Notes under the pieces: model-generated
Seen by the model: the letters and a program-made list of their open reading frames with translations, nothing else
Databases searched by the model: none
Told to the model about the DNA's origin: nothing
Translations under genes and position numbers: made by a program
In this document: in pieces, positions 6,663 to 31,113 of the stretch
Position numbering within the stretch: position 1 is the stretch's first letter
Layout: the number at the start of each line of letters is the position of its first letter
Virus record (IMG/VR): IMGVR_UViG_2870490042_000004
Location: 1-31,113 of that record
DNA from: a virus
Lineage: Duplodnaviria > Heunggongvirae > Uroviricota > Caudoviricetes
Reading direction: 5' to 3' (one strand)
Length of the DNA: 31,113 nucleotides

Positions 6663-7256
6663 CTATTTGTCCCGGTTGGCTAAGGGATGACACAATTTAT
6701 TCTTTGTCGTTGATACGGGGAATTTTTTATAGAGCGTGGACAGGCCAATATCAAAAATCAGCGCCACACGTTGACGAGATTCCCCCGCAGCCAGCAACCG
6801 TCCGACCTGCTCCCACTCACTCGCGGTGAGTTTCGGTCGTCTGCCACCAATACGACCTTTGGCTCTGGCTGCTTCCAGTCCGGCGCGTGTCCGCTCGACA
6901 ATGAGTTCTCGCTCCATTTCAGCCAGGGCACCCATCACATGAAAGAAAAAACGCCCCATCGGCGTGCTGGTATCAATAGCATCTGTCAGGCTGCGAAAAT
7001 TAACGCCGCGTTCGCGCAGTTCCTCAACCAGAATGACCAGATGCCGCATACTACGCCCCAGCCGGTCCAGCTTCCAGACCACCAGTGTATCCCCCTCCGA
7101 TAATGTCCTGAGCAGTTTTTTCAGTCCCGGTCGGTCGGACTTCGTGCCGCTGATTTTATCCTCAAAAATCAGCTCACATCCTGCGCACTCCAGCGCGTTA
7201 CGCTGCAATTCCGTATTCTGGTCATTTGTTGACACGCGGACATAGCCAATAAGCAT
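6663..7256 (-). CDS. Site-specific DNA invertase, serine recombinase of the Gin/Cin/Hin/Pin family
   Basis: 197 aa; N-terminus MLIGYVRVSTNDQ (catalytic Ser), GDTLVVWKLDRLGRS, MGRFFFHVMGALAEMERE, C-terminal HTH (ALIFDIGLSTLYKK); near-collinear with Mu Gin as I remember it. Confidence 0.95.
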   Translation of the reverse strand: MLIGYVRVSTNDQNTELQRNALECAGCELIFEDKISGTKSDRPGLKKLLRTLSEGDTLVVWKLDRLGRSMRHLVILVEELRERGVNFRSLTDAIDTSTPMGRFFFHVMGALAEMERELIVERTRAGLEAARAKGRIGGRRPKLTASEWEQVGRLLAAGESRQRVALIFDIGLSTLYKKFPVSTTKNKLCHPLANRDK

Positions 7257-7312
7257 GATGGATCCCCTGAATAAAAACCGGGGATGATGCCAGTTAGCCG
7301 TAATCTCTGCAT

Positions 7313-7338
7313 TTTCTTAAACGTTGGTTTGGGAGAAG
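7313..7338. repeat. Invertase crossover site (gix/hix-like 26-bp site, left boundary)
   Basis: TTTTCTTAAACG-TT-GGTTTGGGAGAA; two imperfect 12-bp half-sites around a central TT; its right half is the inverted copy of the left half of the site at 9221-9246. Confidence 0.7.
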
Positions 7339-7781
7339 GTGTTCCAGCTATTGGCGTTCCGTTCTTCTGGCCGTCCGCCGCAATGCCAGATACCGTAATC
7401 GAAAGCTGGTCCAGCATGGTGTTTTTGAAGTTCAACGGCGCGAAATTCTCTGCCACTGATTACCCTGTGCTGGCGAAAGTGTTTCCTTCGCTGGTATTGC
7501 CTGAAGCCCGCGGTGATTTCATTCGTATCTGGGATGATGGGCGAGGGGCGGACAGTGGACGAGCATTATTAAGCTGGCAGGCAGCAACATCTTTATCGCA
7601 ATTTGGCGGTAATTATCCAGAGGGCTCCGGCCATTCGATTGCTAATCACGATGGAATATCAGCACACGAGCCGGGTTTCTCTCGATACCATTACACCAGT
7701 AATTCAGTGGGTGATGGTGTGAATTTTATTGCCGTCAGACCACGTAACATCGCATTTAACTTTCTGGTGAGGGCTAAATAA
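7326..7781 (+). CDS. Alternative tail-fibre C-terminal exon (Sv'-like), start-less in the current orientation
   Basis: Reading frame is open through the crossover site and encodes ..VGLGE.., the same residues as H 276-280. It is followed by its own tail-fibre assembly gene with stop/start overlap TAATG. The ATG at 7284 in the ORF track is probably incidental. Confidence 0.6.
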   Translation, partial: GLGEGVPAIGVPFFWPSAAMPDTVIESWSSMVFLKFNGAKFSATDYPVLAKVFPSLVLPEARGDFIRIWDDGRGADSGRALLSWQAATSLSQFGGNYPEGSGHSIANHDGISAHEPGFSRYHYTSNSVGDGVNFIAVRPRNIAFNFLVRAK

Positions 7782-8374
7782 TGAAACCTGTTTTTGATGA
7801 AAATGGACTGGCTACAGTGCCGGGTGATATGCGTTGTTTTTATTATGATGAAGTAACGTATGAATATACGGGCTGGTCTGATGAATATATTAATACTGGT
7901 GTAAGTATGCCCGCCTGTTCCACTGGTATTGACCCGGGCGAAAACATTCCTGGAAAAGTGGCAGTATTTACGGGTAAGGGATGGATCCATGAAGAAGACC
8001 ATCGCAATGAGACTGTTTACTCAACAGAAAATGGTGCAGCTGTTACAGTGGATTATATCGGTGCCATCAAAGACGGTTATGTCACGCTTTCACCGTTAAC
8101 GCCATACGATAAATGGGATGGTGAGAAATGGGTGACGGATACCGAGGCACAGCATAGCGCCGCAGTAGACGCGGCAGAAGCACAGCGCCAGTCGCTGATT
8201 GATGCTGCAATGGCTTCCATTAGTCTGATTCAGCTGAAATTACAGGCCGGGCGGAAACTGACGCAGGCAGAAACAACCCGGCTTAACGCTGTGCTGGATT
8301 ACATTGACGCGGTGACGGCAACAGATACCAGCACCGCGCCGGATATCAATTGGCCTGCTCCCCCGGAGGCGTAG
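7781..8374 (+). CDS. Tail fibre assembly chaperone (Tfa', alternate)
   Basis: 197 aa; SD GAGGG upstream; C-terminal ..DINWPAPPEA motif typical of Tfa/gpG-like chaperones; paired with the Sv' exon. Confidence 0.8.
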   Translation: MKPVFDENGLATVPGDMRCFYYDEVTYEYTGWSDEYINTGVSMPACSTGIDPGENIPGKVAVFTGKGWIHEEDHRNETVYSTENGAAVTVDYIGAIKDGYVTLSPLTPYDKWDGEKWVTDTEAQHSAAVDAAEAQRQSLIDAAMASISLIQLKLQAGRKLTQAETTRLNAVLDYIDAVTATDTSTAPDINWPAPPEA

Positions 8375-8792
8375 GCCAGACGGGATTTGATGTATCAACG
8401 CGCATCAGCAAGACCCGGTATTTTTTCCATTCAGATAACGCGGCGGTTTCTTCTGCCGTCGCGATTTCCGCATCAAAAGCATCCTGTCTCCAGACTATTT
8501 CCTTATCAGCCATAGAACGCAATACCGTTCTTTTCTGTTCAGCCTGAATAATCTGTTGTTCAGCGGAGAGTGGCGGGATATCAATCCACGCAGGATTACC
8601 ATTTTTATCAGCCCCCAGCGTTTTGCCTTCTGGCGCTACGCCTGTGTAAATTGCCATTGTTTCATCATCAACATCAGCGCCATTTTCAGGCCATGAACCG
8701 GCGCTGATATATACCTCTTTTAGTGCTTCCGGATAGAAAGAGCCTTTATAAAATTTATTCATTCTTAATACCCCAGCGCGATAAAACAACAA
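8346..8792 (-). CDS. G: Tail fibre assembly chaperone (P2 gpG-like, currently expressed orientation)
   Basis: 148 aa; immediately downstream of H (overlap 8765-8792); C-terminal ..NPVWPTPPGEQAN Tfa-type motif. Confidence 0.8.
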   Translation of the reverse strand: MLFYRAGVLRMNKFYKGSFYPEALKEVYISAGSWPENGADVDDETMAIYTGVAPEGKTLGADKNGNPAWIDIPPLSAEQQIIQAEQKRTVLRSMADKEIVWRQDAFDAEIATAEETAALSEWKKYRVLLMRVDTSNPVWPTPPGEQAN

Positions 8793-11921: not shown

Positions 11922-12553
11922 AAAGGACTCCCGGTTGTGCCGCCGCTGTCGCCGGGGTGTTTATGGGTATGCAGTACCTTACCGTTTGATGAGAGTTCAC
12001 CGCCGGTGTGTTCAATGTTGCCGCGCATCGTCCCGCCCTTCTGTACTTCCAGCGTGCCGGTAATCAGCCTGTTGGTGCAGACCACCTCCGGTGTGTCCAG
12101 GGTGATGCGGGTTGACGCTTTCACCATGACCACCGGCACCGTGGCAGTAACAGAATCAGAAGCCGTCACGCTGGCCGTTTTAATTCCGCTTACCGTCAGT
12201 GCACTGGTTTCAGGTTCATACTCAATCACCGCCCCGTCAGGGAAACGGATATGCAGGGCATCCGCCGACGCAGACGGCGCGGGGTTATCGCCGGAATAAA
12301 TCCCCGGCAGAACAAACGCCGTGTCAAGTTCACCGCCCACGGCCAGAATCAGCACCTGCTCCCCCATGGAAGGTGCCCACCATGTGCGCGAACGCCCGGC
12401 ACGACAGGTCAGCCACTGAAGCCAGTCGGTGCACATGCCGCCGGTCTGCACACGGCAGCGACCGGCGTTAAGGTCGGTTTCGACGACAAGGCCGGTGCGA
12501 ATCATGTTGCGCAGTGCGCGCGCGAGTTCCTGGATATTTGCGAGAGTGTTCAT
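11918..12553 (-). CDS. V: Baseplate spike / assembly protein (P2 gpV-like)
   Basis: 211 aa (P2 gpV length); first gene of the V-W-J-I-H block. Confidence 0.85.
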   Translation of the reverse strand: MNTLANIQELARALRNMIRTGLVVETDLNAGRCRVQTGGMCTDWLQWLTCRAGRSRTWWAPSMGEQVLILAVGGELDTAFVLPGIYSGDNPAPSASADALHIRFPDGAVIEYEPETSALTVSGIKTASVTASDSVTATVPVVMVKASTRITLDTPEVVCTNRLITGTLEVQKGGTMRGNIEHTGGELSSNGKVLHTHKHPGDSGGTTGSPL

Positions 12554-12619
12554 AACGGGAAGGATGCCGCCGGGTCATACCGGCGGCAATGTGACGATGA
12601 GGTGTCGGGAATGGCACAA

Positions 12620-13072
12620 CTAACGGTCGAGGTGAGCCAGGATAATCTCTTCAATCATCTGCACATCCTCACCGGTGAAACCGAGCAGAGGGCGCGCCGG
12701 ATAATTAATTTTCTTACCGTCTTTCCGGTTTTCTTCCGACAGACCGAACTGATGCACGCTGGCGATTTTCGGTGACTTCCCGCCGTAAAACTCCATTGAT
12801 GCCTGTTCAGGGCTGGCGCGGATATGCAAAAAACGACTGGTAATAAGTTTCGCAAACATTTTTCGCTTAACACGACCAGTCTTTTTTCTGGCGCTCTGCT
12901 GCTGGCGTGGCGCGTAGGGTGTGCCGTCCGGGGCTTTCTGTGCCATCACCCGACGCTGCTGACTCTGACGCAGACGTTTCGCCAGTTCGGCGCTCAGTCG
13001 CCGACGCCCTGACGGTGACAGCGACTCAATCAGTCCGGTCAGCCGGTCTTCAAAACGCTTAAACTCATTCAT
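12620..13072 (-). CDS. S: Tail completion protein (P2 gpS-like)
   Basis: 150 aa (P2 gpS length); overlaps the R stop. Confidence 0.85.
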   Translation of the reverse strand: MNEFKRFEDRLTGLIESLSPSGRRRLSAELAKRLRQSQQRRVMAQKAPDGTPYAPRQQQSARKKTGRVKRKMFAKLITSRFLHIRASPEQASMEFYGGKSPKIASVHQFGLSEENRKDGKKINYPARPLLGFTGEDVQMIEEIILAHLDR

Positions 13073-18993: not shown

Positions 18994-20766
18994 ATGACCA
19001 TCACCACAGACACCACTCTTTTACACGACCCGCGTCGTCAGGCGGCGCTGCTGTACTGGCAGGGATTTTCCGTGCCGCAGATTGCCGCCATGTTGCAGAT
19101 GAAACGCCCGACGGTGCAGAGCTGGAAACAGCGCGACGGCTGGGACAGCGTTGCCCCCATCAGCCGTGTCGAAATGAGTCTGGAAGCGCGGCTGACCCAG
19201 CTCATCATCAAACCGCAGAAAACCGGCGGTGACTTCAAGGAAATTGACCTGCTCGGACGCCAGATTGAACGACTGGCACGGGTCAACCGTTACAGTCAGA
19301 CCGGCAACGAGGCAGACCTTAATCCGAACGTCGCTAACCGCAACAAAGGCGGGCATCGCAAACCGAAAAAGAATTTTTTCAGTGACGAGGCCATCGAAAA
19401 GCTGGAGCAGATTTTCTTTGAGCAGTCTTTCGACTATCAGTTGCACTGGTATCGCGCCGGGCTTGAGCACCGCATCCGCGATATCCTGAAATCCCGCCAG
19501 ATTGGCGCGACGTTTTATTTTTCCCGCGAGGCGCTGCTGCGCGCCCTGAAAACCGGTCATAACCAGATTTTTCTGTCGGCCAGTAAAACGCAGGCGTATG
19601 TGTTCCGCGAATACATCATCGCCTTTGCCCGGCTGGTTGACGTTGACCTGACCGGTGACCCGATTGTCCTGGGCAATAACGGCGCAAAACTGATTTTTCT
19701 CGGCACCAACTCCAACACCGCGCAGAGCCATAACGGCGACCTGTACGTCGACGAGATTTTCTGGATCCCGAATTTTCAGGTGCTCCGTAAGGTGGCATCA
19801 GGTATGGCCTCACAGAGTCACCTGCGCTCGACCTATTTCTCCACCCCGTCCACGCTGGCGCACGACGCCTACCCGTTCTGGTCCGGTGAACTGTTTAACC
19901 GGGGACGCGCCAGCGCCGCCGAACGCGTGGAAATCGACGTCAGTCATAACGCCCTTGCCGGTGGGCTTCTCTGTGCGGACGGCCAGTGGCGGCAGATTGT
20001 CACCATTGAGGACGCCCTGAAAGGCGGCTGCACATTGTTCGACATTGAGCAGCTTAAACGCGAAAACAGCGCCGACGATTTTAAAAACCTGTTCATGTGT
20101 GAATTTGTTGACGACAAGGCGTCGGTGTTCCCGTTCGAGGAGCTGCAACGCTGCATGGTCGACACGCTGGAAGAATGGGAAGACTATGCGCCGTTTGCCG
20201 CGAATCCGTTCGGCTCCCGCCCGGTATGGATTGGTTACGACCCGTCACACCGTGGCGACAGTGCCGGATGCGTGGTGCTGGCACCGCCGGTGGTGGCCGG
20301 TGGCAAATTCAGAATACTTGAGCGTCACCAGTGGAAAGGCATGGACTTTGCCACTCAGGCGGAATCCATCCGCAAACTCACCGAAAAATACAACGTCGAA
20401 TACATCGGTATTGATGCCACCGGCCTCGGTGTCGGCGTGTTCCAGCTCGTGCGCTCGTTCTATCCCGCCGCGCGCGATATCCGCTACACACCGGAAATGA
20501 AAACCGCAATGGTGCTCAAGGCAAAAGACGTTATCCGCCGTGGCTGTCTGGAATATGACGTCAGCGCCACCGACATCACCAGCTCGTTTATGGCTATTCG
20601 CAAGACCATGACCAGCAGCGGACGCAGCGCCACCTATGAGGCCAGCCGCAGCGAGGAAGCCAGCCACGCCGATCTCGCCTGGGCGACCATGCACGCCCTG
20701 TTAAATGAGCCACTCACCGCCGGTATCAGCACCCCGCTGACATCCACCATTCTGGAGTTTTACTGA
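18994..20766 (+). CDS. P: Terminase large (ATPase) subunit (P2 gpP-like)
   Basis: 590-aa product from the ATG at 18994 (MTITTDTT...) with SD GAGGT; stop overlaps the Q start; divergent from O as in P2. Confidence 0.9.
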   Translation: MTITTDTTLLHDPRRQAALLYWQGFSVPQIAAMLQMKRPTVQSWKQRDGWDSVAPISRVEMSLEARLTQLIIKPQKTGGDFKEIDLLGRQIERLARVNRYSQTGNEADLNPNVANRNKGGHRKPKKNFFSDEAIEKLEQIFFEQSFDYQLHWYRAGLEHRIRDILKSRQIGATFYFSREALLRALKTGHNQIFLSASKTQAYVFREYIIAFARLVDVDLTGDPIVLGNNGAKLIFLGTNSNTAQSHNGDLYVDEIFWIPNFQVLRKVASGMASQSHLRSTYFSTPSTLAHDAYPFWSGELFNRGRASAAERVEIDVSHNALAGGLLCADGQWRQIVTIEDALKGGCTLFDIEQLKRENSADDFKNLFMCEFVDDKASVFPFEELQRCMVDTLEEWEDYAPFAANPFGSRPVWIGYDPSHRGDSAGCVVLAPPVVAGGKFRILERHQWKGMDFATQAESIRKLTEKYNVEYIGIDATGLGVGVFQLVRSFYPAARDIRYTPEMKTAMVLKAKDVIRRGCLEYDVSATDITSSFMAIRKTMTSSGRSATYEASRSEEASHADLAWATMHALLNEPLTAGISTPLTSTILEFY

Positions 20767-21800
20767 TGAGTAAGAAAAAAGGGAAAACACCGCAACCTGC
20801 GGCAAAAAAAATGACCGCCAGCGCCCCGAAAATGGAGGCATTCACCTTTGGTGAGCCGGTGCCGGTACTCGACCGCCGTGACATTCTGGATTACGTCGAG
20901 TGCATCAGTAACGGCAGATGGTATGAGCCACCGGTCAGCTTTACCGGTCTGGCGAAAAGCCTGCGTGCTGCCGTGCATCACAGCTCACCGATTTACGTCA
21001 AACGTAATATTCTGGCTTCAACGTTTATCCCGCACCCGTGGCTTTCCCAGCAGGATTTCAGCCGTTTTGTGCTGGATTTTCTGGTGTTCGGTAATGCGTT
21101 TCTGGAAAAGCGTTACAGCACCACCGGTAAGGTCATCAGACTGGAAACCTCACCGGCCAAATATACCCGTCGTGGCGTGGAGGAGGATGTTTACTGGTGG
21201 GTGCCGTCCTTCAACGAGCCGACAGCCTTCGCGCCCGGCTCCGTGTTTCACCTGCTGGAGCCTGATATTAATCAGGAGCTGTACGGCCTGCCGGAATATC
21301 TCAGCGCCCTTAACTCTGCCTGGCTGAATGAGTCGGCCACGCTGTTCCGCCGCAAGTATTACGAAAACGGCGCACATGCAGGATACATCATGTACGTCAC
21401 CGATGCCGTGCAGGATCGCAACGATATCGAAATGCTTCGCGAAAACATGGTGAAGTCGAAAGGCCGCAACAACTTTAAAAACCTGTTTCTCTATGCCCCA
21501 CAGGGGAAAGCCGACGGCATTAAAATTATCCCGCTCAGTGAAGTGGCGACGAAGGACGATTTTTTTAATATCAAAAAAGCCAGCGCCGCTGATCTGCTGG
21601 ACGCGCACCGCATCCCTTTTCAGTTGATGGGCGGCAAGCCGGAGAACGTCGGGTCGCTGGGCGATATTGAGAAAGTGGCAAAGGTCTTTGTCCGCAATGA
21701 GCTTATCCCGCTACAGGACAGGATCCGCGAGATAAACGGCTGGCTCGGTCAGGAGGTCATCCGCTTTAAAAACTACTCACTGGACACTGACAACGGCTGA
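20766..21800 (+). CDS. Q: Portal protein (P2 gpQ-like)
   Basis: 344 aa (P2 gpQ length); last gene before cos. Confidence 0.9.
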   Translation: MSKKKGKTPQPAAKKMTASAPKMEAFTFGEPVPVLDRRDILDYVECISNGRWYEPPVSFTGLAKSLRAAVHHSSPIYVKRNILASTFIPHPWLSQQDFSRFVLDFLVFGNAFLEKRYSTTGKVIRLETSPAKYTRRGVEEDVYWWVPSFNEPTAFAPGSVFHLLEPDINQELYGLPEYLSALNSAWLNESATLFRRKYYENGAHAGYIMYVTDAVQDRNDIEMLRENMVKSKGRNNFKNLFLYAPQGKADGIKIIPLSEVATKDDFFNIKKASAADLLDAHRIPFQLMGGKPENVGSLGDIEKVAKVFVRNELIPLQDRIREINGWLGQEVIRFKNYSLDTDNG

Positions 21801-21805
21801 ACATC

Positions 21806-21827
21806 GCCGCCTGCGGGCGGCTTTTTT
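21806..21827 (+). terminator. Rho-independent terminator downstream of Q
   Basis: GCCGCC-TGCG-GGCGGC perfect 6-bp GC stem with a 4-nt loop, followed by TTTTTT, starting 6 nt after the Q stop. Confidence 0.7.
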
Positions 21828-21969
21828 ACACCCCGTCATCACGCCCTCACACGCTCACCACCGCACAAAACACCCCGCAGACACACCAACGCCTCAACGG
21901 GCAGACTAAGCGCCTTCACGACGCGCTCAGACGCTGAAAAAATAAAATCAGCACCACCGCCAGCGCGCA

Positions 21970-21988
21970 GTGCTTTCCCCGCCTCGCC
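21970..21988. other. cos cohesive-end sequence (P2-type 19-nt cosN)
   Basis: GTGCTTTCCCCGCCTCGCC is the exact reverse complement of the P2 cohesive end GGCGAGGCGGGGAAAGCAC as I recall it; it lies just distal to Q, where cos is expected. Confidence 0.65.
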
Positions 21989-22134
21989 CGCCCGCTTCAT
22001 GGGGCGGTTTTAATGCAGTTACATGACCTTATAAAAGCCACATAACTGCTGTTCTGAATAAGGTATTAAACTCCTGTAACGCTCATTCAATTTAACGCAG
22101 ATTGATGCAATTGCTCACTGCAGTACAATCCCGA

Positions 22135-23949
22135 TTATTTCCATTCTTCAGAATAGACTGCATCTGACGATCTAGGACCAGGTATAGCCTGATGAATAGA
22201 AATTCTCACTGGTATATTAAAAGCTGCACCAAACGCAATTGCATCCCCCCTAGGAAGACCTGAAACTTGTCTAATCATCAATTCATTCCCACTCTCCATC
22301 GCATATCGGAGAGTTTGCAGGTCTCGTTCATTAGTTAGCCGCAATGCAAACCAATTTGAACACATAGCTAATACAGTAGTAGAAAGTTCTGATGGACGCT
22401 GAGTACTAACAATCAATGAACATTTAAATTTGCGTCCTTCTTTTGCAAGACGTTCATAAGCCTTAATTTGAGAATCAATCTCAGAGTAAGGATCTCTCAA
22501 ATAATGATGTGCTTCTTCAAGAAGTAAAACAGTTGGGAAAGACTTATCTTGCCCTCTTAAAAAAAGAACTTCAGCAAACATTTCTAATAAAGCACTCAAC
22601 AGCATTGGTGCATGGTCTTGCGAAAGATTTTTAAGATTAATAATATGCACATTCCAATCATTTTCCTCTCCTTTCTCTCGGCCAAAAAAATAGTCAACTT
22701 CATTTTTCATTGCCGATTCCCAATGTTTACCATTATTAGTTAAAGTATGCCCTCCCTTCATATCTACAACATTTTTGAATCTGATATCCTCTGATAGCTG
22801 CTGAATAATTTTCACTAAAGGAAGCACATTGCCATAACTAAAAGCATCTCTTTTACTTCCACCAGAACGAAAGTCCGCAGCAACACAACCGAACTCGGCT
22901 ACTAAACTAGCAATACTTTTGAATGGAGGCCATCGATCTGTTTTAGCAAGTGTCCTATTTCTTAACCCATCCAACCATAATCCAAGCGAGAATTGCCCTT
23001 CCTCTCGGCAATCATCATATATCCGAAACTGAGTTCCTTTACTATCTTCCAGATAAAAATTAGAACCTTCAAAATGTGTTCTATTTATAGCATTAAGAGC
23101 ATTCCTCAACGCTGGCAACTGTGTTTTATCGCTAGGACGTAGTAATTTTATCAACCCTGCAAAACCAAGCGCTTGATACGGTATTTGCTTATAATAGACA
23201 TGTTTTTCAGAAAATACCTGACCTCGCACAAATGGAGGTCGCGGTGGTATACCTTCAGGACTCATCCCCAAAATAGTATGTTTAACATTCGCTATTCCTT
23301 CAAATGCTTTAGAATACTCGCCATTAATATCAAAAATCACAATTCTCGAATTAGGATACTTCTCGGAAATACGCCTGGTCAACAGTGCATTAAAATTTGA
23401 TTTTCCATACCCAGTACTCCCTAACACAGCCATATGACGAGTCAACAACTTATCAATACTCGCTAAGATTTTTACTGATTTAGTTCTTGAATCCAAACCT
23501 AACTCTATGGCTTTTTCCAATTCATCCTCATCGATACTATAAATCGTATTTAAAAAATTAGATGTTAACGGAACCGCTGAGGCCCCCAATGCTGGTAGTC
23601 TCCAATCCTCTGAAACAAAAATACACCCGTCGTTGTTTCTCTTAATGAAACCAATGGCATAAGCTATAATCTGCCTTAAAGGCATATCCGTTATATCCGA
23701 CGTACCGATATTTGCTTTATGAGCTTTATCAGCCTCGACAAACGCCATATCTGTAACTCGGGCAACGACCAAAATATTTCCAGCATCAAAACCAATCAAA
23801 TCACCAGGCTGAGTAACAGAACTCACACCATCCCTATGAGAGGCCAATCTTCCTTGTAGACCTTCATGAAGGTTAATCCTTATTTTCTCACCTTCCAAAC
23901 CAACAACATAACCAATTGCAGAAAGCTCTGAGAGTTTAAAATGAGACAT
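22135..23949 (-). CDS. HerA/FtsK-like ATPase, second gene of a SIR2-HerA-type defence operon
   Basis: Walker A GSTGYGKS, Walker B LLLEEAHHY, HerA-type motifs IVIFDINGEY and FKCSLIVSTQRPSEL. Start placed at the ATG at 23949 (MSHFKL..., SD AAAGGGGA), which overlaps the upstream gene's stop by 14 nt. The ORF track's TTG at 23997 is a less likely start. AT-rich codon usage. Confidence 0.8.
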   Translation of the reverse strand: MSHFKLSELSAIGYVVGLEGEKIRINLHEGLQGRLASHRDGVSSVTQPGDLIGFDAGNILVVARVTDMAFVEADKAHKANIGTSDITDMPLRQIIAYAIGFIKRNNDGCIFVSEDWRLPALGASAVPLTSNFLNTIYSIDEDELEKAIELGLDSRTKSVKILASIDKLLTRHMAVLGSTGYGKSNFNALLTRRISEKYPNSRIVIFDINGEYSKAFEGIANVKHTILGMSPEGIPPRPPFVRGQVFSEKHVYYKQIPYQALGFAGLIKLLRPSDKTQLPALRNALNAINRTHFEGSNFYLEDSKGTQFRIYDDCREEGQFSLGLWLDGLRNRTLAKTDRWPPFKSIASLVAEFGCVAADFRSGGSKRDAFSYGNVLPLVKIIQQLSEDIRFKNVVDMKGGHTLTNNGKHWESAMKNEVDYFFGREKGEENDWNVHIINLKNLSQDHAPMLLSALLEMFAEVLFLRGQDKSFPTVLLLEEAHHYLRDPYSEIDSQIKAYERLAKEGRKFKCSLIVSTQRPSELSTTVLAMCSNWFALRLTNERDLQTLRYAMESGNELMIRQVSGLPRGDAIAFGAAFNIPVRISIHQAIPGPRSSDAVYSEEWK

Positions 23950-25183
23950 TCCCATCCCCTTTAGATAATTTAGAAATAGCCTCAACCAGATCATCAACAG
24001 TATTTTCTCTTGGAAAGAGAACAGGATAGGGAAGATGTTTTACAAAACTGTCAAAGTAGGCATATTCACCTCCACCAACAATAGTCACCTGATTAAATGT
24101 CAAATTTTTTAAATTAATTATTGCCTTTTCACTTTCTGAAGCCAAGTTTTTTTCAACTTTTGATTGAGCACTATCTAACTCTGGATAATAAATAACGATA
24201 TGAAATGATGGATTTAACAACGCTCCTAAAATTATTCGATTTATATGGTAATCACCGAATCCAAAACCATTTACAAACAATGCTGTTTGTGGCTTTGACA
24301 AAAACTCTCCAAATCGTCTAAACATCTCGCCATACACAAAACCAATAGTATGGCTATATTTATTTGCACCGGGGTAAATTAAGTGTTGACCATGGAAATA
24401 ACCATCTTCATTTATGATATTTTGTATATAGTTATCATAGGCTTGAGAAGCACTTATTTCACTAACTGTTAAACAATCATCCTGATACCAAGTAAGAGAA
24501 CCGTGCAATTTATAAAGATAGGCATGATAATGTCCAAAACGTGCTTCTCCCTTTGCATTTACATTTCTAAAAGCCAAATCGAAATTTTGAGGGTAAAATT
24601 GTCGCGTGTGTAATCCAGCAAATCCATTAAACAACTGAATCCCTAAATCCTCTGCTGACCATTCTAAAGCCAAATCATAATTTGTTGTAAAAAGTGCAGG
24701 TGCCGATTGACCTGGTTGACGATTTGATATTAGTTTGGATATTAGCTCTTTATGATCTCGGAATTGAGATTTCTTACCCTGGTTTTTATTTCTAAAATCA
24801 CTACCAGTCAATAATGCAGCTTTTGTCACTTCTTTATATAAACTGCTTAATATCAAACCAACTTCCTTAACCTCAACTTCATTATGTCGAGTTTTTGCGA
24901 CTGATAAAAATTTAGTAGCTTCATCAATCAATAATTCCACATTGACTATATCATTATCAGAATCAGCCTGAGTGACCAAAAAATATTTTTCAATTAGCAA
25001 TGCCAGAAGCTTCGGATACTCTTGCTTAAACGATTGCCACACCTGCTTCATTGTGTTCCCACCACAACCAACAGATGCGCCAGCTCCCAAGAGAACCCCA
25101 ACATTATCCAACTGGCATAAAGAGTAAACATGAGAACGAAAATCATCCTCACAAATCTTTTTACCACCTTGATAAATAATCAT
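23936..25183 (-). CDS. SIR2-like (sirtuin-fold, SIR2_2-type) NADase-family protein, first gene of the SIR2-HerA-type operon
   Basis: 415 aa; Gly-rich NAD-binding loop VGVLLGAGASVGCGG; TTNYD and KLHGS motifs (SIR2 catalytic Asn/His context); SD AAAGGGG 5 nt upstream of the ATG; AT-rich. Confidence 0.8.
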   Translation of the reverse strand: MIIYQGGKKICEDDFRSHVYSLCQLDNVGVLLGAGASVGCGGNTMKQVWQSFKQEYPKLLALLIEKYFLVTQADSDNDIVNVELLIDEATKFLSVAKTRHNEVEVKEVGLILSSLYKEVTKAALLTGSDFRNKNQGKKSQFRDHKELISKLISNRQPGQSAPALFTTNYDLALEWSAEDLGIQLFNGFAGLHTRQFYPQNFDLAFRNVNAKGEARFGHYHAYLYKLHGSLTWYQDDCLTVSEISASQAYDNYIQNIINEDGYFHGQHLIYPGANKYSHTIGFVYGEMFRRFGEFLSKPQTALFVNGFGFGDYHINRIILGALLNPSFHIVIYYPELDSAQSKVEKNLASESEKAIINLKNLTFNQVTIVGGGEYAYFDSFVKHLPYPVLFPRENTVDDLVEAISKLSKGDGNVSF

Positions 25184-25252
25184 AAACGCCCCTTTCGACT
25201 AAAGTTTGAATCTGAAAACAACCTAAATTGAAATGTAGATTATGAGAGAATT

Positions 25253-25281
25253 TTTTTAGAACGAAAAGCCCATTCATTCAA
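25253..25281 (-). promoter_or_regulatory. Candidate sigma70-type promoter for the SIR2-HerA operon
   Basis: On the minus strand: TTGAAT, 17-nt spacer, TAAAAA, about 70-100 nt upstream of the SIR2 ATG in an ORF-free AT-rich 200-bp spacer. Hexamer match is weak and unverified. Confidence 0.25.
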
Positions 25282-25385
25282 GGAGTTAAAACCATCAGAA
25301 ATCACTGTTTTACTACATGCCAGAACTCCCCTTATGGCTTGTCTGTTACGCCATGCTGAGCTAGGTCTACACAACTACCTGTAAT

Positions 25386-27506
25386 TTACGACAGACAGGA
25401 TTTAGTCAGCCTCGCAGATGACGTAATTTTATGCGGTTTTAACAGATTGTAATTACTATGGTGGTGCTTTCTCGTAGACAAAGAGTATTTTAATGCCCCC
25501 CTGAGCACCCTCACGACATCCTGGTCATTCCATTCGATAACTCCGTCATCAACCAGATTAAGCACTGCTGCGGCGTGCTCAGAAGGTGTGGGAGCCGGTA
25601 ACGAAGTATCACCACCGGTGAGCATTCCACAGTTATTGACAGGACTCCGAGGCGCGGCGATGCCGCTTTTTAAAGTCAAAGGCTCAACGACCGGAACTTT
25701 CGGCACAATGCGCCAGTCCGTCGTTCTGGTGATATGAATATGACGCGCGCCGAGATGCGGCGCGTAAATGCCGACCACTCTCCCGACTTCTTCCTCGTAC
25801 TCGTTAACGTCATCCGACGGACTACGGGCAACCCTGACAGTCTGACAATCACGCGGAACATTTGCCCCACCCTGCGCGCTGATATACAACGCAAAATCAC
25901 CACTGTCTGCGGCGGCACGTGCAGCCTCAACGCGTTCGTCAAACTCATCAGCAATGCTGACGCCGCGAGGCAATTTGCGTAGTTCACGGTAAGCCCCCAT
26001 TGTCGGCAGACCAACCGTTTTAAATTGTGGGATGCGCCACGTTGACGCCCATGCGGTAACAGCCGCAGCAGTGTCTTTCAGCGGTCTGCCGGTATCGTTA
26101 TCGAGCTGACCATCCAGTGCATAGCCATCGATGTTTTTTGAGATGTATTTCGCGATATACCCCGCAGCACCGCCCCGGTTAAGGTGTTTTGCCTGAAAAC
26201 GGTTTCGCGCGGCTCCTCTTTCGTCGCCATCCTCTTTGAGCGCATAGCGACGCATGATTTCAATAATCTGGTTACGCTGGCGTGGATTACAAAAAAGCAT
26301 CATATGCCAGTGCGGCGTTCCGTCGTGGTGTGGCTCGACGACTCGCAAACCGTAGACCTGTAAATCATTATCCTTGAATGCCGTGCGCATCAGGCTCCAG
26401 ATACGGCAGAGATAACGCTGCGCATCCTTTGGATTAAATGCCTCATCATTCCAGCCGTGATTAAGCTGGACGGTTTTACTTTCGCCTTTTCCGACCTGAC
26501 GTGTCGGGTGATACTTTGACGGCGTGGTCAGCGTGATAAACATCCCCACATCACCCTCTGCGGCGGCGTAACGCTCAATACCGGCGATGGTGTTCATCAG
26601 CTCCATCCGGCGAATTTCAGGATTAGAAATACTGCCCATCACCTTACTGATAAGGTCGATGCGCTCGCCGGTTTCCCTGTTTTCGAGGTCACACGATTTA
26701 AGAAATTCCAGATTTGCCTGGCGGCGTGCACGCACATCACGAATGGCATGTTTACTGGCATAAGGAGAACGGTCTTTATTGACCTCCCCGACAGCAATCA
26801 GTAACGCCTCATGCCAGCGCATACGCTGGCCTTTAAGCTGATGAGTCCACCACTCATCGTTAAACAGACGAGCAATGGCAGAATATGCCTGCCTCGTGGT
26901 CATCTGTCCTTTACGGTATTTTTTCCAGTAAAGCGGGGAAATATTGAAAGCACGTGCAGCGCCAGCAACATGACCATACAGATGCGCCTGCGCCTCATCC
27001 GTAAACAGCGATTCTTTTTCGCCATGCGCATCCACCCAGGCATCGCAGAGTTCCTCATACATCATGAAAAGCTGCGATGAGATACGGGCGGCAAACTTTT
27101 TCAGCTCCTTGTCATTCATCCCCGGCAGACGCGCATAGTGGTCACGCTCAGCCAGAAACAGCATCGACGCTTCGGTGTTCATTTCATGGCGCTGATTCAC
27201 GCGCTCAATGCGCGGCCATAAACGACGCTGAAAAGTGGATGTGAGGAAATAAAACCCGTGCACCGGGCTTTTATTGCGCCGGATGTAGTCATAGCGTGAA
27301 GTAAACAGCGAACGCAAAAAGTAAGGCAGGCGGTTAATCGTGGATAAAACACCTTGCACCTGACGCATCTCGTCACGTGTAAGGGGTCTTTCGCGCCCGA
27401 CAGCCTCGCGTGGCGCGTTCCATGCATAAGCACCGGTAAACGTCTCACCGGTGCCTGCGGCAAATGCTGACGGAGGGACAAAACGCCCGGAGGCTTTAAC
27501 GGCCAT
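25386..27506 (-). CDS. A: Replication initiation protein A (rolling-circle HUH endonuclease, P2 gpA-like)
   Basis: About 706 aa from the first ATG at 27506 (MAVKASGRF...); the ORF track starts at an upstream TTG at 27548. HUH-type motif PHWHMMLF and tyrosine motif YIAKYISKN; position between the early ORFs and the cargo island. Confidence 0.88.
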   Translation of the reverse strand: MAVKASGRFVPPSAFAAGTGETFTGAYAWNAPREAVGRERPLTRDEMRQVQGVLSTINRLPYFLRSLFTSRYDYIRRNKSPVHGFYFLTSTFQRRLWPRIERVNQRHEMNTEASMLFLAERDHYARLPGMNDKELKKFAARISSQLFMMYEELCDAWVDAHGEKESLFTDEAQAHLYGHVAGAARAFNISPLYWKKYRKGQMTTRQAYSAIARLFNDEWWTHQLKGQRMRWHEALLIAVGEVNKDRSPYASKHAIRDVRARRQANLEFLKSCDLENRETGERIDLISKVMGSISNPEIRRMELMNTIAGIERYAAAEGDVGMFITLTTPSKYHPTRQVGKGESKTVQLNHGWNDEAFNPKDAQRYLCRIWSLMRTAFKDNDLQVYGLRVVEPHHDGTPHWHMMLFCNPRQRNQIIEIMRRYALKEDGDERGAARNRFQAKHLNRGGAAGYIAKYISKNIDGYALDGQLDNDTGRPLKDTAAAVTAWASTWRIPQFKTVGLPTMGAYRELRKLPRGVSIADEFDERVEAARAAADSGDFALYISAQGGANVPRDCQTVRVARSPSDDVNEYEEEVGRVVGIYAPHLGARHIHITRTTDWRIVPKVPVVEPLTLKSGIAAPRSPVNNCGMLTGGDTSLPAPTPSEHAAAVLNLVDDGVIEWNDQDVVRVLRGALKYSLSTRKHHHSNYNLLKPHKITSSARLTKSCLS

Positions 27507-29082: not shown

Positions 29083-29315
29083 TTCCAGACCCTCCGGCTT
29101 TTCAGAAAGGTCAGAGCCTTTTTTAACGGACTCTGTTTTTTGGTGCGGATAATGATTCCCTTGCGACCCTTTCCGTGGGTGATGGTGAAGTCAATCGCCC
29201 TGGGGCTTTCGTTACGCAATAACTGAGCAATACAACGAGGCTCGTTCATCCTTTCCACCTTAAGCCGCACGGCCATGTCTTGATTTGCTGTAACTAATGC
29301 GATTTTTCCAGTCAT
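29079..29315 (-). CDS. Hypothetical early protein (P2 orf78 position)
   Basis: 78-aa product if started at the internal ATG at 29315; the ORF-track 96-aa version overlaps cox by 110 nt. Basic C-terminus. Start is ambiguous. Confidence 0.4.
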   Translation of the reverse strand: MTGKIALVTANQDMAVRLKVERMNEPRCIAQLLRNESPRAIDFTITHGKGRKGIIIRTKKQSPLKKALTFLKSRRVWK

Positions 29316-29631
29316 GCCATTCTGTCGGAGCTTCATCAACCAGTTGGGCTGCGTACTTGTCCCACTCACGGCGATTAATCCATAATTCAGCTTTCCCTCT
29401 TGGTTTTAATGGGTCTGTCATGTAGAAGGCTGGCAGCTTTCCTGCTTTAGCCATTTCAGCCACCGCGCGTGGTGTCTTACCGATGTAAAGAGCAAAACCT
29501 TCTTTCGACAGCAAATCAGATGGGCGCTCTGAAATCTGAATGCTTTTACGTTTGGCTTCATTTTCGAAACTTGCCTCATCGCTAGTTGGACAAGAAATTT
29601 CTACATTTGTCGTCACTTTGCTATCCTCCAT
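29260..29631 (-). CDS. cox: Cox-like excisionase / early-promoter repressor (HTH)
   Basis: Divergent from C; HTH-like segment FALYIGKTPRAVAEMAKAGKLPAFYMTDP; ORF is 123 aa but a GTG at codon 6 preceded by GGAGGA is an alternative start. Exact start unresolved. Confidence 0.6.
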   Translation of the reverse strand: MEDSKVTTNVEISCPTSDEASFENEAKRKSIQISERPSDLLSKEGFALYIGKTPRAVAEMAKAGKLPAFYMTDPLKPRGKAELWINRREWDKYAAQLVDEAPTEWHDWKNRISYSKSRHGRAA

Positions 29632-29640
29632 AAGATTTGC

Positions 29641-29682
29641 GATTCACCAACTGGAGCCTTCTAGAGCCTTTTTGAGTGAATC
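29641..29682. promoter_or_regulatory. Immunity switch region with candidate operator repeats (Pe/Pc region)
   Basis: Direct repeat GAGCCTT at 29654-29660 and 29664-29670, flanked by the inverted repeat GATTCAC (29641-29647) / GTGAATC (29676-29682), in the 93-bp cox-C intergenic spacer. Confidence 0.4.
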
Positions 29683-29724
29683 ACAAATTGCCAAGTAGCA
29701 ATATAATTGGAGATTAGCAAAATT

Positions 29725-30024
29725 ATGTCAAGTGAACAAAGTGAAAAACTAAAGCTCATCCGTGAATCCGAACGCCTTAAAACTAAGGAACTTGCTGAAT
29801 TAATTGGAATTAATTACTACACATATCATGGATATGAATCAGGAAAATCAAAAATGCCTATGGAAGCAGGTATGAAGCTGTTTAAGCATCCACGCTTTCG
29901 CAAGTATCGTGACTGGTTCATGTTTGATGAAACAGATCCAGCAGCTGGACAAATAGCCCCGGCTCTCGCACACATTGGGCAAGACTCAACAACCTTGCAC
30001 CACTCAGACCAGAAAACTGGCTGA
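29725..30024 (+). CDS. C: Immunity repressor C (P2 C-like)
   Basis: 99-aa product from the first ATG at 29725 (the ORF track starts at a TTG at 29707); C-terminal ..GQIAPALAH.GQ.....HSDQKTG matches my recollection of P2 C. Confidence 0.85.
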   Translation: MSSEQSEKLKLIRESERLKTKELAELIGINYYTYHGYESGKSKMPMEAGMKLFKHPRFRKYRDWFMFDETDPAAGQIAPALAHIGQDSTTLHHSDQKTG

Positions 30025-30117
30025 CGATTTATTCAGCATATGTGTGTAGTAAATGTACGAAAGAAAATTGCATTAATTTTCAAGTAGTAGAAGTAAACAG
30101 CGTCATCGGAGGGCTTT

Positions 30118-31113
30118 ATGTCTATTAAAAAGCTCGATGATGGTCGTTATGAAGTGGACGTCAGACCGCAGGGTGCAGATGGAAAACGTATCAGGCGGAA
30201 ATTTAAAACTAAAGGTGAAGCTCAAGCATTCGAACGTCATGTACTGGTTAACTACCACAACAAAGAGTGGCTGGAGAAACCAGCCGACCGCCGAACTCTT
30301 ACAGAGTTGTTAGGCAGATGGTGGATATATCACGGAAAATCACATGAGCGTGGAGATATTGAACGGGGGCGTTTAACGACAATAATCGCCAAATTTGCAG
30401 AAATGGGAGTGTCCAGAGCTGACCAGCTAACAAAGAAAACGATAACTGATTATCGCGTTGTAATGATGAACGATGGTCTAAAACCAGCCAGCGTAAATCG
30501 GCATCTGGCAATAATGAGCGGGATGTTCACCAAGTTAATTGACGCCGGTGAATACCACTCTCACAACCCGTTCCGTGAGGTTAAGCGGTTACGTGAAGCT
30601 GTTACAGAAATGGCTTTTTTGTCCAGTGAAGAGATTACGCGACTGTTATCCATGCTTGATGGTGATGAATTAAATGCGACTCTGGTCTGCCTTTCTACTG
30701 GTGGACGCTGGAGTGAAGTGTCTAATTTAAAAGCTGAACACATCATTAACCAGATGGTTACGTTTATGAAAACTAAAAACGGAAAGCGCAGGACAATTCC
30801 CGTTTCGCAGGACTTGATTAAACGGATCAAAACCAAAAATTCTGGCAGGCTTTTTAATGCCAGTTACTACAAAGTGCGCAACGCTCTCAGGGAAGTAAAA
30901 CCCGATTTACCTGACGGACAGGCAGTGCATGTTTTGAGGCATACATTTGCCACACATTTTATAATGAATGGAGGTAACATAATCACATTGCAGCGCATCC
31001 TGGGTCATTCTAACATTCAGCAAACTATGACCTACGCACACTTTGCACCGGATTTCTTACAAGATGCTGTGACTCTTAACCCGGTGTCAGGAATGTCCAT
31101 AATGCGTCCATAA
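30118..31113 (+). CDS. int: Tyrosine integrase (P2 Int-like)
   Basis: 331 aa; C-terminal catalytic region HVLRHTFATHF...LGHSNIQQTMTYAHF (R/H-x-x-R...Y); stop codon is the last 3 nt of the window. Confidence 0.9.
   Translation: MSIKKLDDGRYEVDVRPQGADGKRIRRKFKTKGEAQAFERHVLVNYHNKEWLEKPADRRTLTELLGRWWIYHGKSHERGDIERGRLTTIIAKFAEMGVSRADQLTKKTITDYRVVMMNDGLKPASVNRHLAIMSGMFTKLIDAGEYHSHNPFREVKRLREAVTEMAFLSSEEITRLLSMLDGDELNATLVCLSTGGRWSEVSNLKAEHIINQMVTFMKTKNGKRRTIPVSQDLIKRIKTKNSGRLFNASYYKVRNALREVKPDLPDGQAVHVLRHTFATHFIMNGGNIITLQRILGHSNIQQTMTYAHFAPDFLQDAVTLNPVSGMSIMRP

What the first reader, a model, noticed from the sequence alone, without database searches (positions are those of the whole stretch)
21989..25500. 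AT-rich cargo island with one junction at cos and the other inside the 3' end of gene A
Base composition drops sharply from about 22000 to about 25500 relative to the GC-rich late genes and the body of A. The low-GC stretch continues about 100 nt into the 3' end of A, so the last roughly 35 codons of A (...YSLSTRKHHHSNYNLLKPHKITSSARLTKSCLS) are encoded by cargo-like DNA. At about 706 aa this A is also shorter than P2 gpA (about 761 aa as I recall). That pattern suggests cargo exchange by recombination within the A 3' end, which would make the A C-terminus a mosaic.
Basis: partly seen in the sequence, partly recalled or inferred. Interest (0 to 1): 0.5.

Follow-up and report, generated by a model that had tools for sequence, protein, structure and literature searches.

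The report
P2 prophage defence island clipping gene A
This is the well-known anti-phage "cargo slot" next to the packaging site of a P2-like E. coli prophage, here carrying a SIR2-HerA defence system, and its swappable block reaches about 100 nt into the replication gene A, leaving A with a decayed, shortened tail.

Summary
A 3.47-kb block (about 22018-25485) has 37% GC against 54% for the rest of the window. It starts about 30 nt past cos and ends inside gene A at codon 673/674. A is 706 aa, against 761 aa in P2.

The cargo is a SIR2-HerA defence system in the known gpA-gpQ hotspot of P2-like phages.

The low-GC last 33 codons of A are not foreign DNA. They are a diverged copy of A's own tail. 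It ends at a premature TAA, and the decayed remainder can be traced to the ancestral A stop codon at 25240.

A sister SIR2-HerA allele (about 78% identical) sits beside a full-length 770-aa A.

The block, truncated tail included, is nearly identical (0-6 differences in 3468 nt) in nine other prophages whose flanks differ by 1.5-3%. Three prophages examined carry three Cox/repressor types and two integration sites. Identity tracts reach variable distances into A. This fits spread by homologous recombination in the flanks.

The lost segment is a conserved, confidently predicted mini-domain. Whether a phage with the shortened A still replicates is untested.

This is an ordinary member of a known hotspot with one modestly interesting detail.

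The parts
21970..21988 (.). cos, the 19-nt cohesive-end sequence (reverse complement of P2 cosR)
   Evidence: GTGCTTTCCCCGCCTCGCC read. It aligns to the P2 right end, annotated cosR 33575-33593.
21989..22017 (+). Conserved cos-flanking stretch with a GC-rich hairpin followed by a T run. It still belongs to the phage backbone.
   Evidence: 97.9% identical to P2 over 21970-22017; other P2-like loci align to 22017-22029. Terminator-like site at 21988-22007.
22018..22134 (.). Left junction (about 22018-22030) and the non-coding spacer of the block downstream of HerA
   Evidence: Similarity to P2, S164, pro483 and L007 ends at 22017-22029. Zero differences here among the ten carriers of the block.
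22135..23949 (-). HerA ATPase of the SIR2-HerA defence system (604 aa; overlaps the SIR2 stop by 14 nt)
   Evidence: PADLOC HerA PDLC02185, E = 1.6e-274. Pfam DUF87/HerA. RefSeq CDS coordinates. 1087 bits to PDB 8j4u chain M.
23936..25183 (-). SIR2 effector (415 aa) of the SIR2-HerA system
   Evidence: PADLOC SIR2 PDLC02186, E = 8e-190. Pfam SIR2_2. 782 bits over the full length to PDB 8j4u chain A.
25184..25239 (-). Spacer between the ancestral A stop codon and the SIR2 start. It contains the SIR2 ribosome-binding site (AAAGGGG).
   Evidence: Sequence. The equivalent spacer is 54 nt in the ET210 and 18AR0366 loci.
25240..25385 (-). Decayed remnant of the A 3' end (pseudo-tail). It carries further stop codons, a 4-nt deletion and a 42-nt deletion, and ends at the ancestral A stop codon, 25240-25242.
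   Evidence: The read-through translation ITGSCVDLAQHGVTDKP* aligns with P2 ITRIRVDLAQNGIRPQR. In the DNA alignment with ET210 and P2 the TAA at 25240-25242 aligns with the ET210 A stop. The frame-shifted remnant DGFNSLNEWAF matches DDVNSLNLWSI of ET210.
25386..25485 (-). Diverged, AT-enriched last 33 codons of A (residues 674-706) plus the premature TAA stop at 25386-25388
   Evidence: GC 0.40. 38% nucleotide divergence from P2 against 3% in the preceding 100 codons; codon-position spread 9/11/18; AT bias 18:9. The TAA sits where P2 has CAG and ET210 has CAA.
25486..27506 (-). Body of replication gene A (residues 1-673), canonical P2 type. It holds the Phage_GPA domain, the HUH-type motif region and the catalytic-tyrosine motif YIAKYISK.
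   Evidence: 96% protein identity to P2 gpA up to residue 673. Pfam PF05840, E = 9e-124. DNA identity 94-99%.
25588..25707 (-). Origin region inside A; the P2 nick-site equivalent is at about 25648, 163 nt from the junction
   Evidence: 118 of 120 nt identical to P2 29833-29952 around the annotated nick site 29892.

Best explanation
The window is a complete P2-like prophage of E. coli, 100% identical to strain 32-4. The AT-rich stretch is the cargo of the known defence hotspot between the portal gene Q/cos and replication gene A. Here the cargo is a two-gene SIR2-HerA abortive-infection system.

The exchangeable block is about 22018-25485. It contains the cargo and, on one side, the last roughly 97 codons of A.

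The block moves between P2-like phages by homologous recombination. One crossover falls in the conserved cos/Q flank and the other in the body of A. Anything 3' of codon 673 therefore stays linked to the cargo and is not refreshed by exchange with other A genes.

In this block lineage the linked A tail was inactivated. The premature TAA at codon 707 is one lesion. Others are further stop codons, a 4-nt deletion and a 42-nt deletion. The tail has since drifted nearly neutrally towards AT. The 33 residues after position 673 are most likely a functionless extension.

This A lacks the conserved C-terminal mini-domain (P2 residues about 700-750). It keeps its catalytic core and the in-gene origin.

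Shown: the boundaries, the homology of the tail, the lesions, the identity of the block across different backbones, and the identity of the cargo.

Inferred: homologous recombination as the mechanism, neutral drift of the tail, and that the shortened A still supports phage replication.
For: Cargo identity. PADLOC and Pfam hits, close matches to the solved SIR2-HerA complex 8j4u/8su9, and RefSeq annotation.

Known hotspot. Rousset et al. 2022 (PMC9122126) describe the gpA-gpQ locus next to cos. A 2026 NAR paper (PMC13586616) describes rapid swapping there.

Boundaries. blastn against seven loci puts them at 22017-22029 and 25485-25489. A sliding identity profile agrees.

The tail is homologous to A..

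A sister allele keeps an intact tail. The ET210 and 18AR0366 loci carry a SIR2-HerA block about 78% identical and a 770-aa A. Scandinavium (L006) and Enterobacter A proteins (P0017-P0023) end in the same DDDNSLNxWAVSS motif; in L006 that tail lies immediately upstream of SIR2-HerA.

The block behaves as a unit. 0-6 differences in 3468 nt, and none in the tail or pseudo-tail, against 30-59 differences in 2021 nt of the A body across nine other backbones. Identity tracts end at variable points.

The same block occurs in different prophages. It is found with different Cox and repressor proteins and at two integration sites, pflA and yegR. The exact SIR2 protein is indexed in 513 blocks of the assembly collection (the index's own storage units), and all ten contexts shown have the 706-aa A.

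Neutral-like drift. Codon-position and AT-bias counts.

No mobile-element signature. No terminal repeats at the boundaries, and the only genes called in the block in the ten carrier loci are SIR2 and HerA.

The rest of the prophage is intact. All essential P2 genes are full length at 93-100% identity and the origin nick region is conserved.
Against: There is no direct evidence that any phage with this 706-aa A replicates or forms plaques. None of 50,697 phage records carries this cargo.

The lost tail is conserved. 113 of 120 A-protein clusters at 73-85% identity are 751-779 aa long and keep the motif. This argues that the tail has a function, so these prophages could be replication-impaired and the block could spread only by recombination into resident prophages.

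Part of the tail divergence could predate inactivation, because the tail may have been imported from a more distant P2-like lineage. With only 33 + 23 codons, the codon-position test cannot separate this from pure drift (chi-square p about 0.17 against a uniform spread, my calculation).

The order of the lesions is unknown.
Confidence: 0.8

Rival explanations
1. Foreign cargo DNA was joined by illegitimate recombination directly into the A coding sequence. On this view the last 33 codons are unrelated cargo sequence that happens to stay open.
For: GC of these 100 nt is 0.40, close to the cargo. Identity breaks sharply at 25485. Truly non-homologous A ends do exist elsewhere: the tail of P0104/L029 after about residue 670 has no recognisable A-tail homology.
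Against: The 33 codons and the next roughly 150 nt align without gaps to the P2 and ET210 A tails, with conserved motifs, and the ancestral stop codon is in register. The sister allele has an intact tail at the same place.
Confidence: 0.05
2. The diverged tail is a functional alternative C-terminus, imported from a distant P2-like phage and kept by selection. It might give a new specificity, or it might be kept because it carries the promoter of the co-oriented SIR2-HerA operon.
For: The motif LKPH-I--SARLT-S is retained. The tail and pseudo-tail are invariant across ten carriers. The cargo points the same way as A and needs a promoter active in the lysogen. One sigma-70-like site lies in the tail, at 25453-25426 on the minus strand. 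Tails ending DDxNSLNxW accompany SIR2-HerA in E. coli (ET210, 18AR0366) and Scandinavium, and end the Enterobacter A proteins P0017-P0023.
Against: Substitutions are nearly uniform over codon positions and AT-biased, the same upstream and downstream of the stop. The conserved mini-domain is missing altogether. The promoter-like hit is one of 12 where 10.9 are expected by chance. Invariance across carriers also fits recent spread of the whole block, since the cargo is equally invariant.
Confidence: 0.12
3. The prophage is replication-defective, and the clipped A is simply the first step of prophage decay. The block then persists because the host keeps the defence system.
For: The lost tail is conserved across the family. 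The 2026 NAR paper reports that gpA is the P2 core gene most often found as a pseudogene in defective elements. No isolated phage carries this block.
Against: Every other essential P2 gene is intact. The block lies in at least three Cox/repressor types and at two integration sites, each with a complete late-gene set in the part examined. A is an intact 706-codon reading frame in all ten contexts, although the A bodies differ by 1.5-3%. Tail-less A genes recur independently: pro483 at 723 aa, P0104 at 712 aa with 305 member sequences, P0022 and P0041.
Confidence: 0.3

Closest known systems
Defence hotspot of P2-like phages between gpA and gpQ next to cos (the old/tin locus of P2; Rousset et al. 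2022, PMC9122126; 2026 NAR survey, PMC13586616)
   Same: Same position, between portal gene Q/cos and replication gene A. AT-rich variable cargo sits in an otherwise 93-100% conserved P2 backbone. The cargo is an anti-phage system, and near-identical cargo is found in backbones that differ.
   Different: Those surveys take the locus to be the genes lying between gpA and gpQ. Here the exchangeable unit demonstrably includes the last roughly 97 codons of A, and that linked tail is pseudogenised. In the passages of those papers that I searched, I found no statement that the boundary lies inside A.
SIR2-HerA (Nezha) anti-phage system, solved as PDB 8j4u, 8su9 and others
   Same: Two overlapping, co-oriented genes encoding SIR2 (415 aa) and HerA (604 aa). 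Full-length, very high-scoring matches to both chains of the solved complex and to the PADLOC models.
   Different: Nothing notable. This allele differs by about 21% in DNA from a second E. coli allele at the same P2 locus. Activity of this allele was not tested.
P2 gpA rolling-circle replication initiator (Pfam PF05840 Phage_GPA)
   Same: 96% identical to P2 gpA over residues 1-673. It has the Phage_GPA domain, the YIAKYISK tyrosine motif and the origin nick region inside the gene.
   Different: 706 aa rather than 761 aa. It lacks the conserved C-terminal mini-domain (two helices and a beta hairpin, predicted at pLDDT about 89) and carries 33 drifted residues instead.
Other tail-less gpA variants beside co-oriented cargo: Escherichia phage pro483 (A 723 aa, DUF4238 cargo) and cluster P0104 (A 712 aa, CTD9/MC5 cargo)
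   Same: A is cut short between about residue 670 and 723, followed by a 100-240-nt gap and then cargo on the same strand.
   Different: These are independent events with different tails and cargo. The pro483 tail is of the Scandinavium type. The P0104 tail has no recognisable A-tail homology.

Membership tests
P2-like phage gpA-gpQ defence hotspot | Lies between replication gene A and portal gene Q, next to cos, in a P2-like prophage | tested here: met
   Q at 20766-21800, cos at 21970-21988, cargo at 22135-25183, A at 25386-27506.
P2-like phage gpA-gpQ defence hotspot | Content varies between otherwise conserved P2-like genomes | tested here: met
   P2 carries orf91/tin/old here. STYP1, 569R9, pro483 and pro147 carry other genes. 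Only the flanks match.
P2-like phage gpA-gpQ defence hotspot | Cargo is an anti-phage system | tested here: met
   SIR2-HerA identified by PADLOC and by matches to the solved complex. Defence activity of this allele was not assayed.
SIR2-HerA defence system | Adjacent, co-oriented SIR2-domain gene and HerA-type ATPase gene | tested here: met
   SIR2 at 23936-25183 and HerA at 22135-23949, both on the minus strand, overlapping by 14 nt.
SIR2-HerA defence system | Full-length homology to an experimentally characterised SIR2-HerA complex | tested here: met
   782 bits over residues 1-415 and 1087 bits over residues 1-603 to 8j4u chains A and M.
SIR2-HerA defence system | NADase and ATPase catalytic residues intact; protects against phage | not tested
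   Residue-level comparison with the solved chains and a phage challenge were not done.
P2 gpA (Phage_GPA rolling-circle initiator) | Phage_GPA domain with the catalytic tyrosine pair | tested here: met
   PF05840, E = 9e-124, covering all 321 profile positions. YIAKYISK is invariant in the alignment with P2.
P2 gpA (Phage_GPA rolling-circle initiator) | Origin nick site inside the gene | tested here: met
   118 of 120 nt identical around the P2 nick site; equivalent position about 25648.
P2 gpA (Phage_GPA rolling-circle initiator) | Full-length C-terminus with the conserved tail motif (APSxRLTKxER...RIRxDLAQxGIxPxRWELxxLARGAxV) | tested here: not met
   The reading frame stops at residue 706. 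The motif region survives only as a decayed remnant out of frame or behind stop codons.
Transposon or integron-type insertion | Terminal direct or inverted repeats at the two junctions, or a transposase or integrase in the block | tested here: not met
   No repeat pair spans 22018-22030 and 25485. SIR2 and HerA are the only genes called in the block in the ten carrier loci and the only ORFs there with family matches.

The most novel reading that the evidence does not exclude
The conserved C-terminal mini-domain of gpA (P2 residues about 700-750) is dispensable for P2-type replication. The defence hotspot routinely erodes the 3' end of this essential gene. Cargo placed on the same strand as A carries along, and overwrites, the A tail, perhaps because the cargo's lysogen promoter has to sit inside it. 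Viable P2-like phages with tail-less A then arise repeatedly. If so, the hotspot boundary is set by how much of A the phage can afford to lose, not by the gene's end.
Probability: 0.3. Interest if true: 0.45.

Novelty: new member of a known kind. Interest (0 to 1): 0.3.

Why it matters
For defence-island biology this is one more occupant of a catalogued hotspot. The cargo is a characterised system.

The useful detail is mechanistic. The window shows at base resolution that the swappable unit overlaps an essential core gene, that the overlapped piece stays linked to the cargo, and that it can decay without stopping the block from spreading into prophages with different immunity regions and integration sites.

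Two practical points follow:
- Pipelines that delimit P2 hotspots as "genes between gpA and gpQ" will misplace the true recombination boundary.
- They will also score the leftover A tail as an intergenic pseudogene.

The finding also yields a cheap, testable statement about gpA: residues beyond about 673 may be non-essential.

Tried and rejected
Fold of the lost A tail. The full-length gpA model was poor (mean pLDDT 46). A model of the last 126 residues was good for the mini-domain. Foldseek against the PDB gave no hit with E below 2. Pfam and PDB sequence searches of the tail gave nothing significant. The fold and function of the mini-domain therefore remain unassigned.

Literature.
- A search for work on the gpA C-terminus found nothing relevant.
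- A search for the pro483 description found only in-silico mentions, so I could not establish whether pro483 (A 723 aa) is a plaque-forming phage.
- A search for the Odegrip 2006 paper on the variable locus found only papers citing it.

Donor of the tail. A scan of one genome per species with the SIR2 protein found only more distant alleles (Scandinavium 85% and a metagenome-assembled contig 82% amino-acid identity). No intact close relative of this low-GC tail was found.

Promoter in the tail. The consensus scan gave one site in the tail, but the total was at chance level (12 found, 10.9 expected). I treat this as a lead only.

Other negative checks. No Rfam family matches in 21700-25800. No boundary repeats were found.

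Assembly artefact. Rejected, because the same sequence appears in at least ten independent assemblies.


Full report
**What the window is**

tblastn of all P2 proteins shows a complete P2-like prophage running from ogr (4-219) to int (30118-31092). Every essential late and early gene is full length at 93-100% identity. Only the usual variable parts differ: the tail fibres H and G, the int/C/cox region, and the orf30 and fun(Z) loci. The finding's region (21900-25600) is 100% identical to E. coli strain 32-4, NZ_CP048310.1.

**Checking the observation**

- GC is 0.33-0.41 across about 22000-25500 and 0.51-0.63 in the neighbouring late genes and the A body.
- With the boundaries refined below, the block 22018-25485 has GC 0.370 and the rest of the window 0.539. 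Comparing 200-nt windows gives a Mann-Whitney p of 2e-10.
- In 50-nt steps GC changes at 25485/25486. The A stop codon lies at 25386-25388.
- A (25386-27506, minus strand) is 706 aa. P2 gpA is 761 aa.
- All parts of the observation hold. The one adjustment is that the left junction sits about 30-40 nt beyond cos (21970-21988), after a conserved hairpin, not at the last base of cos.

**What the cargo is**

The two genes are HerA (22135-23949) and SIR2 (23936-25183), both on the A strand.
- They hit the PADLOC SIR2-HerA models at E = 1.6e-274 and 8e-190.
- They match both chains of the solved E. coli SIR2-HerA complex (8j4u, 8su9) over their full lengths.
- According to the literature retrieved, SIR2-HerA is an abortive-infection system in which HerA controls a SIR2 NADase (PMC11514289, PMC13434337).
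- The locus between gpA and gpQ next to cos is the described defence hotspot of P2-like phages (PMC9122126; PMC13586616).
- No Rfam family, terminal repeats, transposase or integrase is present in the block.

**The A-side junction**

Protein alignment with P2 and phage S164 is 96% identical up to ...RGALKY (residue 673).

Residues 674-703 are diverged but clearly homologous: SLSTRKHHHSNYNLLKPHKITSSARLTKS in the window against DMRTPNRQQRNGSPLKPHEIAPSARLTRS in P2. The frame then stops, while P2 continues for 58 more residues.

Reading through the TAA gives ITGSCVDLAQHGVTDKP*, which aligns with P2 ITRIRVDLAQNGIRPQR.

In the DNA alignment the homology continues through a second stop, a 4-nt deletion and a 42-nt deletion. 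It ends at a TAA at 25240-25242 that is in register with the A stop codon of a related locus. So 25240-25385 is the decayed remainder of A.

blastn against seven P2-like loci places the identity break at 25485-25489 each time. The 100-nt identity profile falls from 0.94-0.99 to 0.68-0.71, then 0.63-0.68.

**A sister allele shows the ancestral state**

About 15 complete E. coli genomes carry a SIR2-HerA block 78% identical in DNA at the same locus.
- In strains ET210 and 18AR0366, A is 770 aa. It is canonical up to ...ARGARVNY and then ends in an AT-rich stretch, GDMSFKFPVDDRFYDDVNSLNLWSIESHVNFT, 54 nt before SIR2.
- A similar ending...DDDNSLNxWAVSS, lies immediately upstream of SIR2-HerA in Scandinavium (L006), and Enterobacter A proteins (P0017-P0023) end in the same motif.
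- The window keeps a frame-shifted trace of it, DGFNSLNEWAF, at the end of ORF 25240..25374.

The very end of A therefore travels with this cargo family.

**The block behaves as one unit**

The exact SIR2 protein is indexed in 513 blocks of the assembly collection (the index's own storage units). All ten contexts retrieved have the 706-aa A.

Nine of these ten differ from the window by 30-59 substitutions in 2021 nt of the A body, and by similar amounts in the Q/P and early genes. They differ by only 0-6 in the 3468-nt block, and by none in the 302 nt of tail plus pseudo-tail.

The first difference on the A side falls at 25497, 25783 or 26176, depending on the locus. On the other side the differences stop at about 21910-22000.

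Three carriers examined further have:
- three different Cox/repressor sets;
- two integrase types;
- two chromosomal sites, beside pflA and beside yegR.

This is the pattern expected if the block is exchanged by homologous recombination, with crossovers at variable points in A and around cos. The mechanism itself is inferred.

**Why the tail is AT-rich**

Compared with P2:
- The 100 codons before the junction differ at 10 of 300 sites.
- The 33 in-frame tail codons differ at 38 of 99 sites, spread 9/11/18 over the three codon positions.
- The 23 codons after the stop differ at 35 of 69 sites, spread 10/9/16.
- In both tail stretches, changes towards A or T outnumber the reverse by 2:1.

SIR2 compared between the two alleles differs at 273 of 1248 sites, spread 61/33/179, with no compositional bias.

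The tail thus looks like sequence released from coding constraint, at a divergence comparable to the cargo's third-position divergence (43%). I read the 33 residues as a functionless extension. I read the low GC as AT-biased drift rather than imported cargo composition. The sample is small, and some divergence may predate inactivation.

**What A has lost**

Among 120 clusters of A proteins at 73-85% identity, 113 are 751-779 aa long and share the tail motif APSxRLTKxER..I.RIRxDLAQxGIxPxRWELxxLARGAxV.

AlphaFold on the last 126 residues predicts:
- two helices at 641-653 and 662-675;
- a poorly ordered linker;
- a confident mini-domain of two helices and a beta hairpin at 702-744, with pLDDT about 89.

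The junction at residue 673/674 coincides with the end of the second helix. No fold or family match was found for the mini-domain.

The origin nick region, 163 nt from the junction, is conserved at 118 of 120 nt.

**How unusual this is**

Tail-less A genes recur independently:
- pro483, 723 aa, with a diverged tail of the Scandinavium type;
- P0104, 712 aa, 305 member sequences, followed by CTD9/MC5 cargo;
- P0022, 695 aa;
- P0041, 684 aa;
- a metagenome contig, L007.

In complete E. coli genomes the 265 nt upstream of the junction are found at 1925 places, mostly at 95-99% identity. The 265-nt tail is found at 1605 places, mostly at 90-95% identity, with ragged 3' ends. The last part of A is therefore generally a transition zone of the hotspot.

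**Verdict**

The island is a routine example of a known hotspot carrying a known system. The correction is that the odd tail is A's own, dead and drifting.

Whether the clipped A is functional is open. The intact remainder of the prophage, and the spread of the block across prophages with different immunity regions and integration sites, point to yes. The strong conservation of the lost mini-domain, and the absence of any isolated phage with this block, point the other way.

Noticed in passing
window 6663-8792: At the P2 fun(Z) position, between the tail-fibre genes and FI, there is a 197-aa serine DNA invertase of the Hin/Gin/Cin type (6663..7256, minus strand). It is flanked by oppositely oriented tail-fibre C-terminus and assembly ORFs (7284..7781 and 7781..8374 on the plus strand; 8346..8792 on the minus strand). 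This looks like a Mu/P1-type invertible host-range segment. P2 H and G match this region at only 37-42%.
   Followed up: partly
window 12553-12623: The P2 orf30 locus between S and V is empty here: about 70 nt and no orf30 homologue.
   Followed up: no
window 29311-31092: The immunity and integration region is not of the P2 type. Int is 53%, C 50% and Cox 35% identical to P2, and the prophage sits beside pflA. Another carrier of the same cargo block has P2-length int (337 aa) and cox (91 aa) genes and sits beside yegR.
   Followed up: partly
window 25426-25453 (minus strand): A sigma-70-like site (ATTACA, 16-nt spacer, TAAAAT) lies inside the drifted A tail, upstream of SIR2-HerA. It could be the cargo's lysogen promoter, but the number of such sites in the region is at chance level.
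   Followed up: no
window 21988-22007: A GC-rich hairpin followed by a T run lies immediately after cos and is conserved in P2 and other P2-like phages. It marks the last conserved bases before the cargo.
   Followed up: no
L007 (JAEYGZ010000011.1, labelled 'Bacillota bacterium' MAG): This 7-kb contig is 95% identical to E. coli P2-like portal, cos and A sequence, so the taxonomic label is probably wrong. Its A is cut at the N-terminus and joined to unrelated sequence, and its A tail diverges at about residue 665 into a third kind of short tail next to an 82%-identical SIR2.
   Followed up: partly
L004 (E. coli 18AR0366) 2434-3401: The sister SIR2-HerA allele here lies in a heavily deleted P2 remnant. 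ogr and a fragment of D are fused to a fragment of the portal gene, yet A, SIR2 and HerA are intact. This looks like a domesticated defence locus.
   Followed up: no
L029/L030, metagenome contigs with A protein P0104: A P2-like phage with a 712-aa A is followed by five co-oriented genes, including the Pfam families CTD9 and MC5 (conflict-system domains) and two products without any Pfam hit. This may be an uncharacterised defence cargo.
   Followed up: no
NZ_CP046716.1 / NZ_CP142710.1 (E. coli T16R), hits H77 and H78: In this carrier an IS903B (IS5-like) element is inserted in or beside the SIR2-HerA block. This is unusual, since the 2026 NAR paper describes transposable elements as almost absent from these hotspots.
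   Followed up: no
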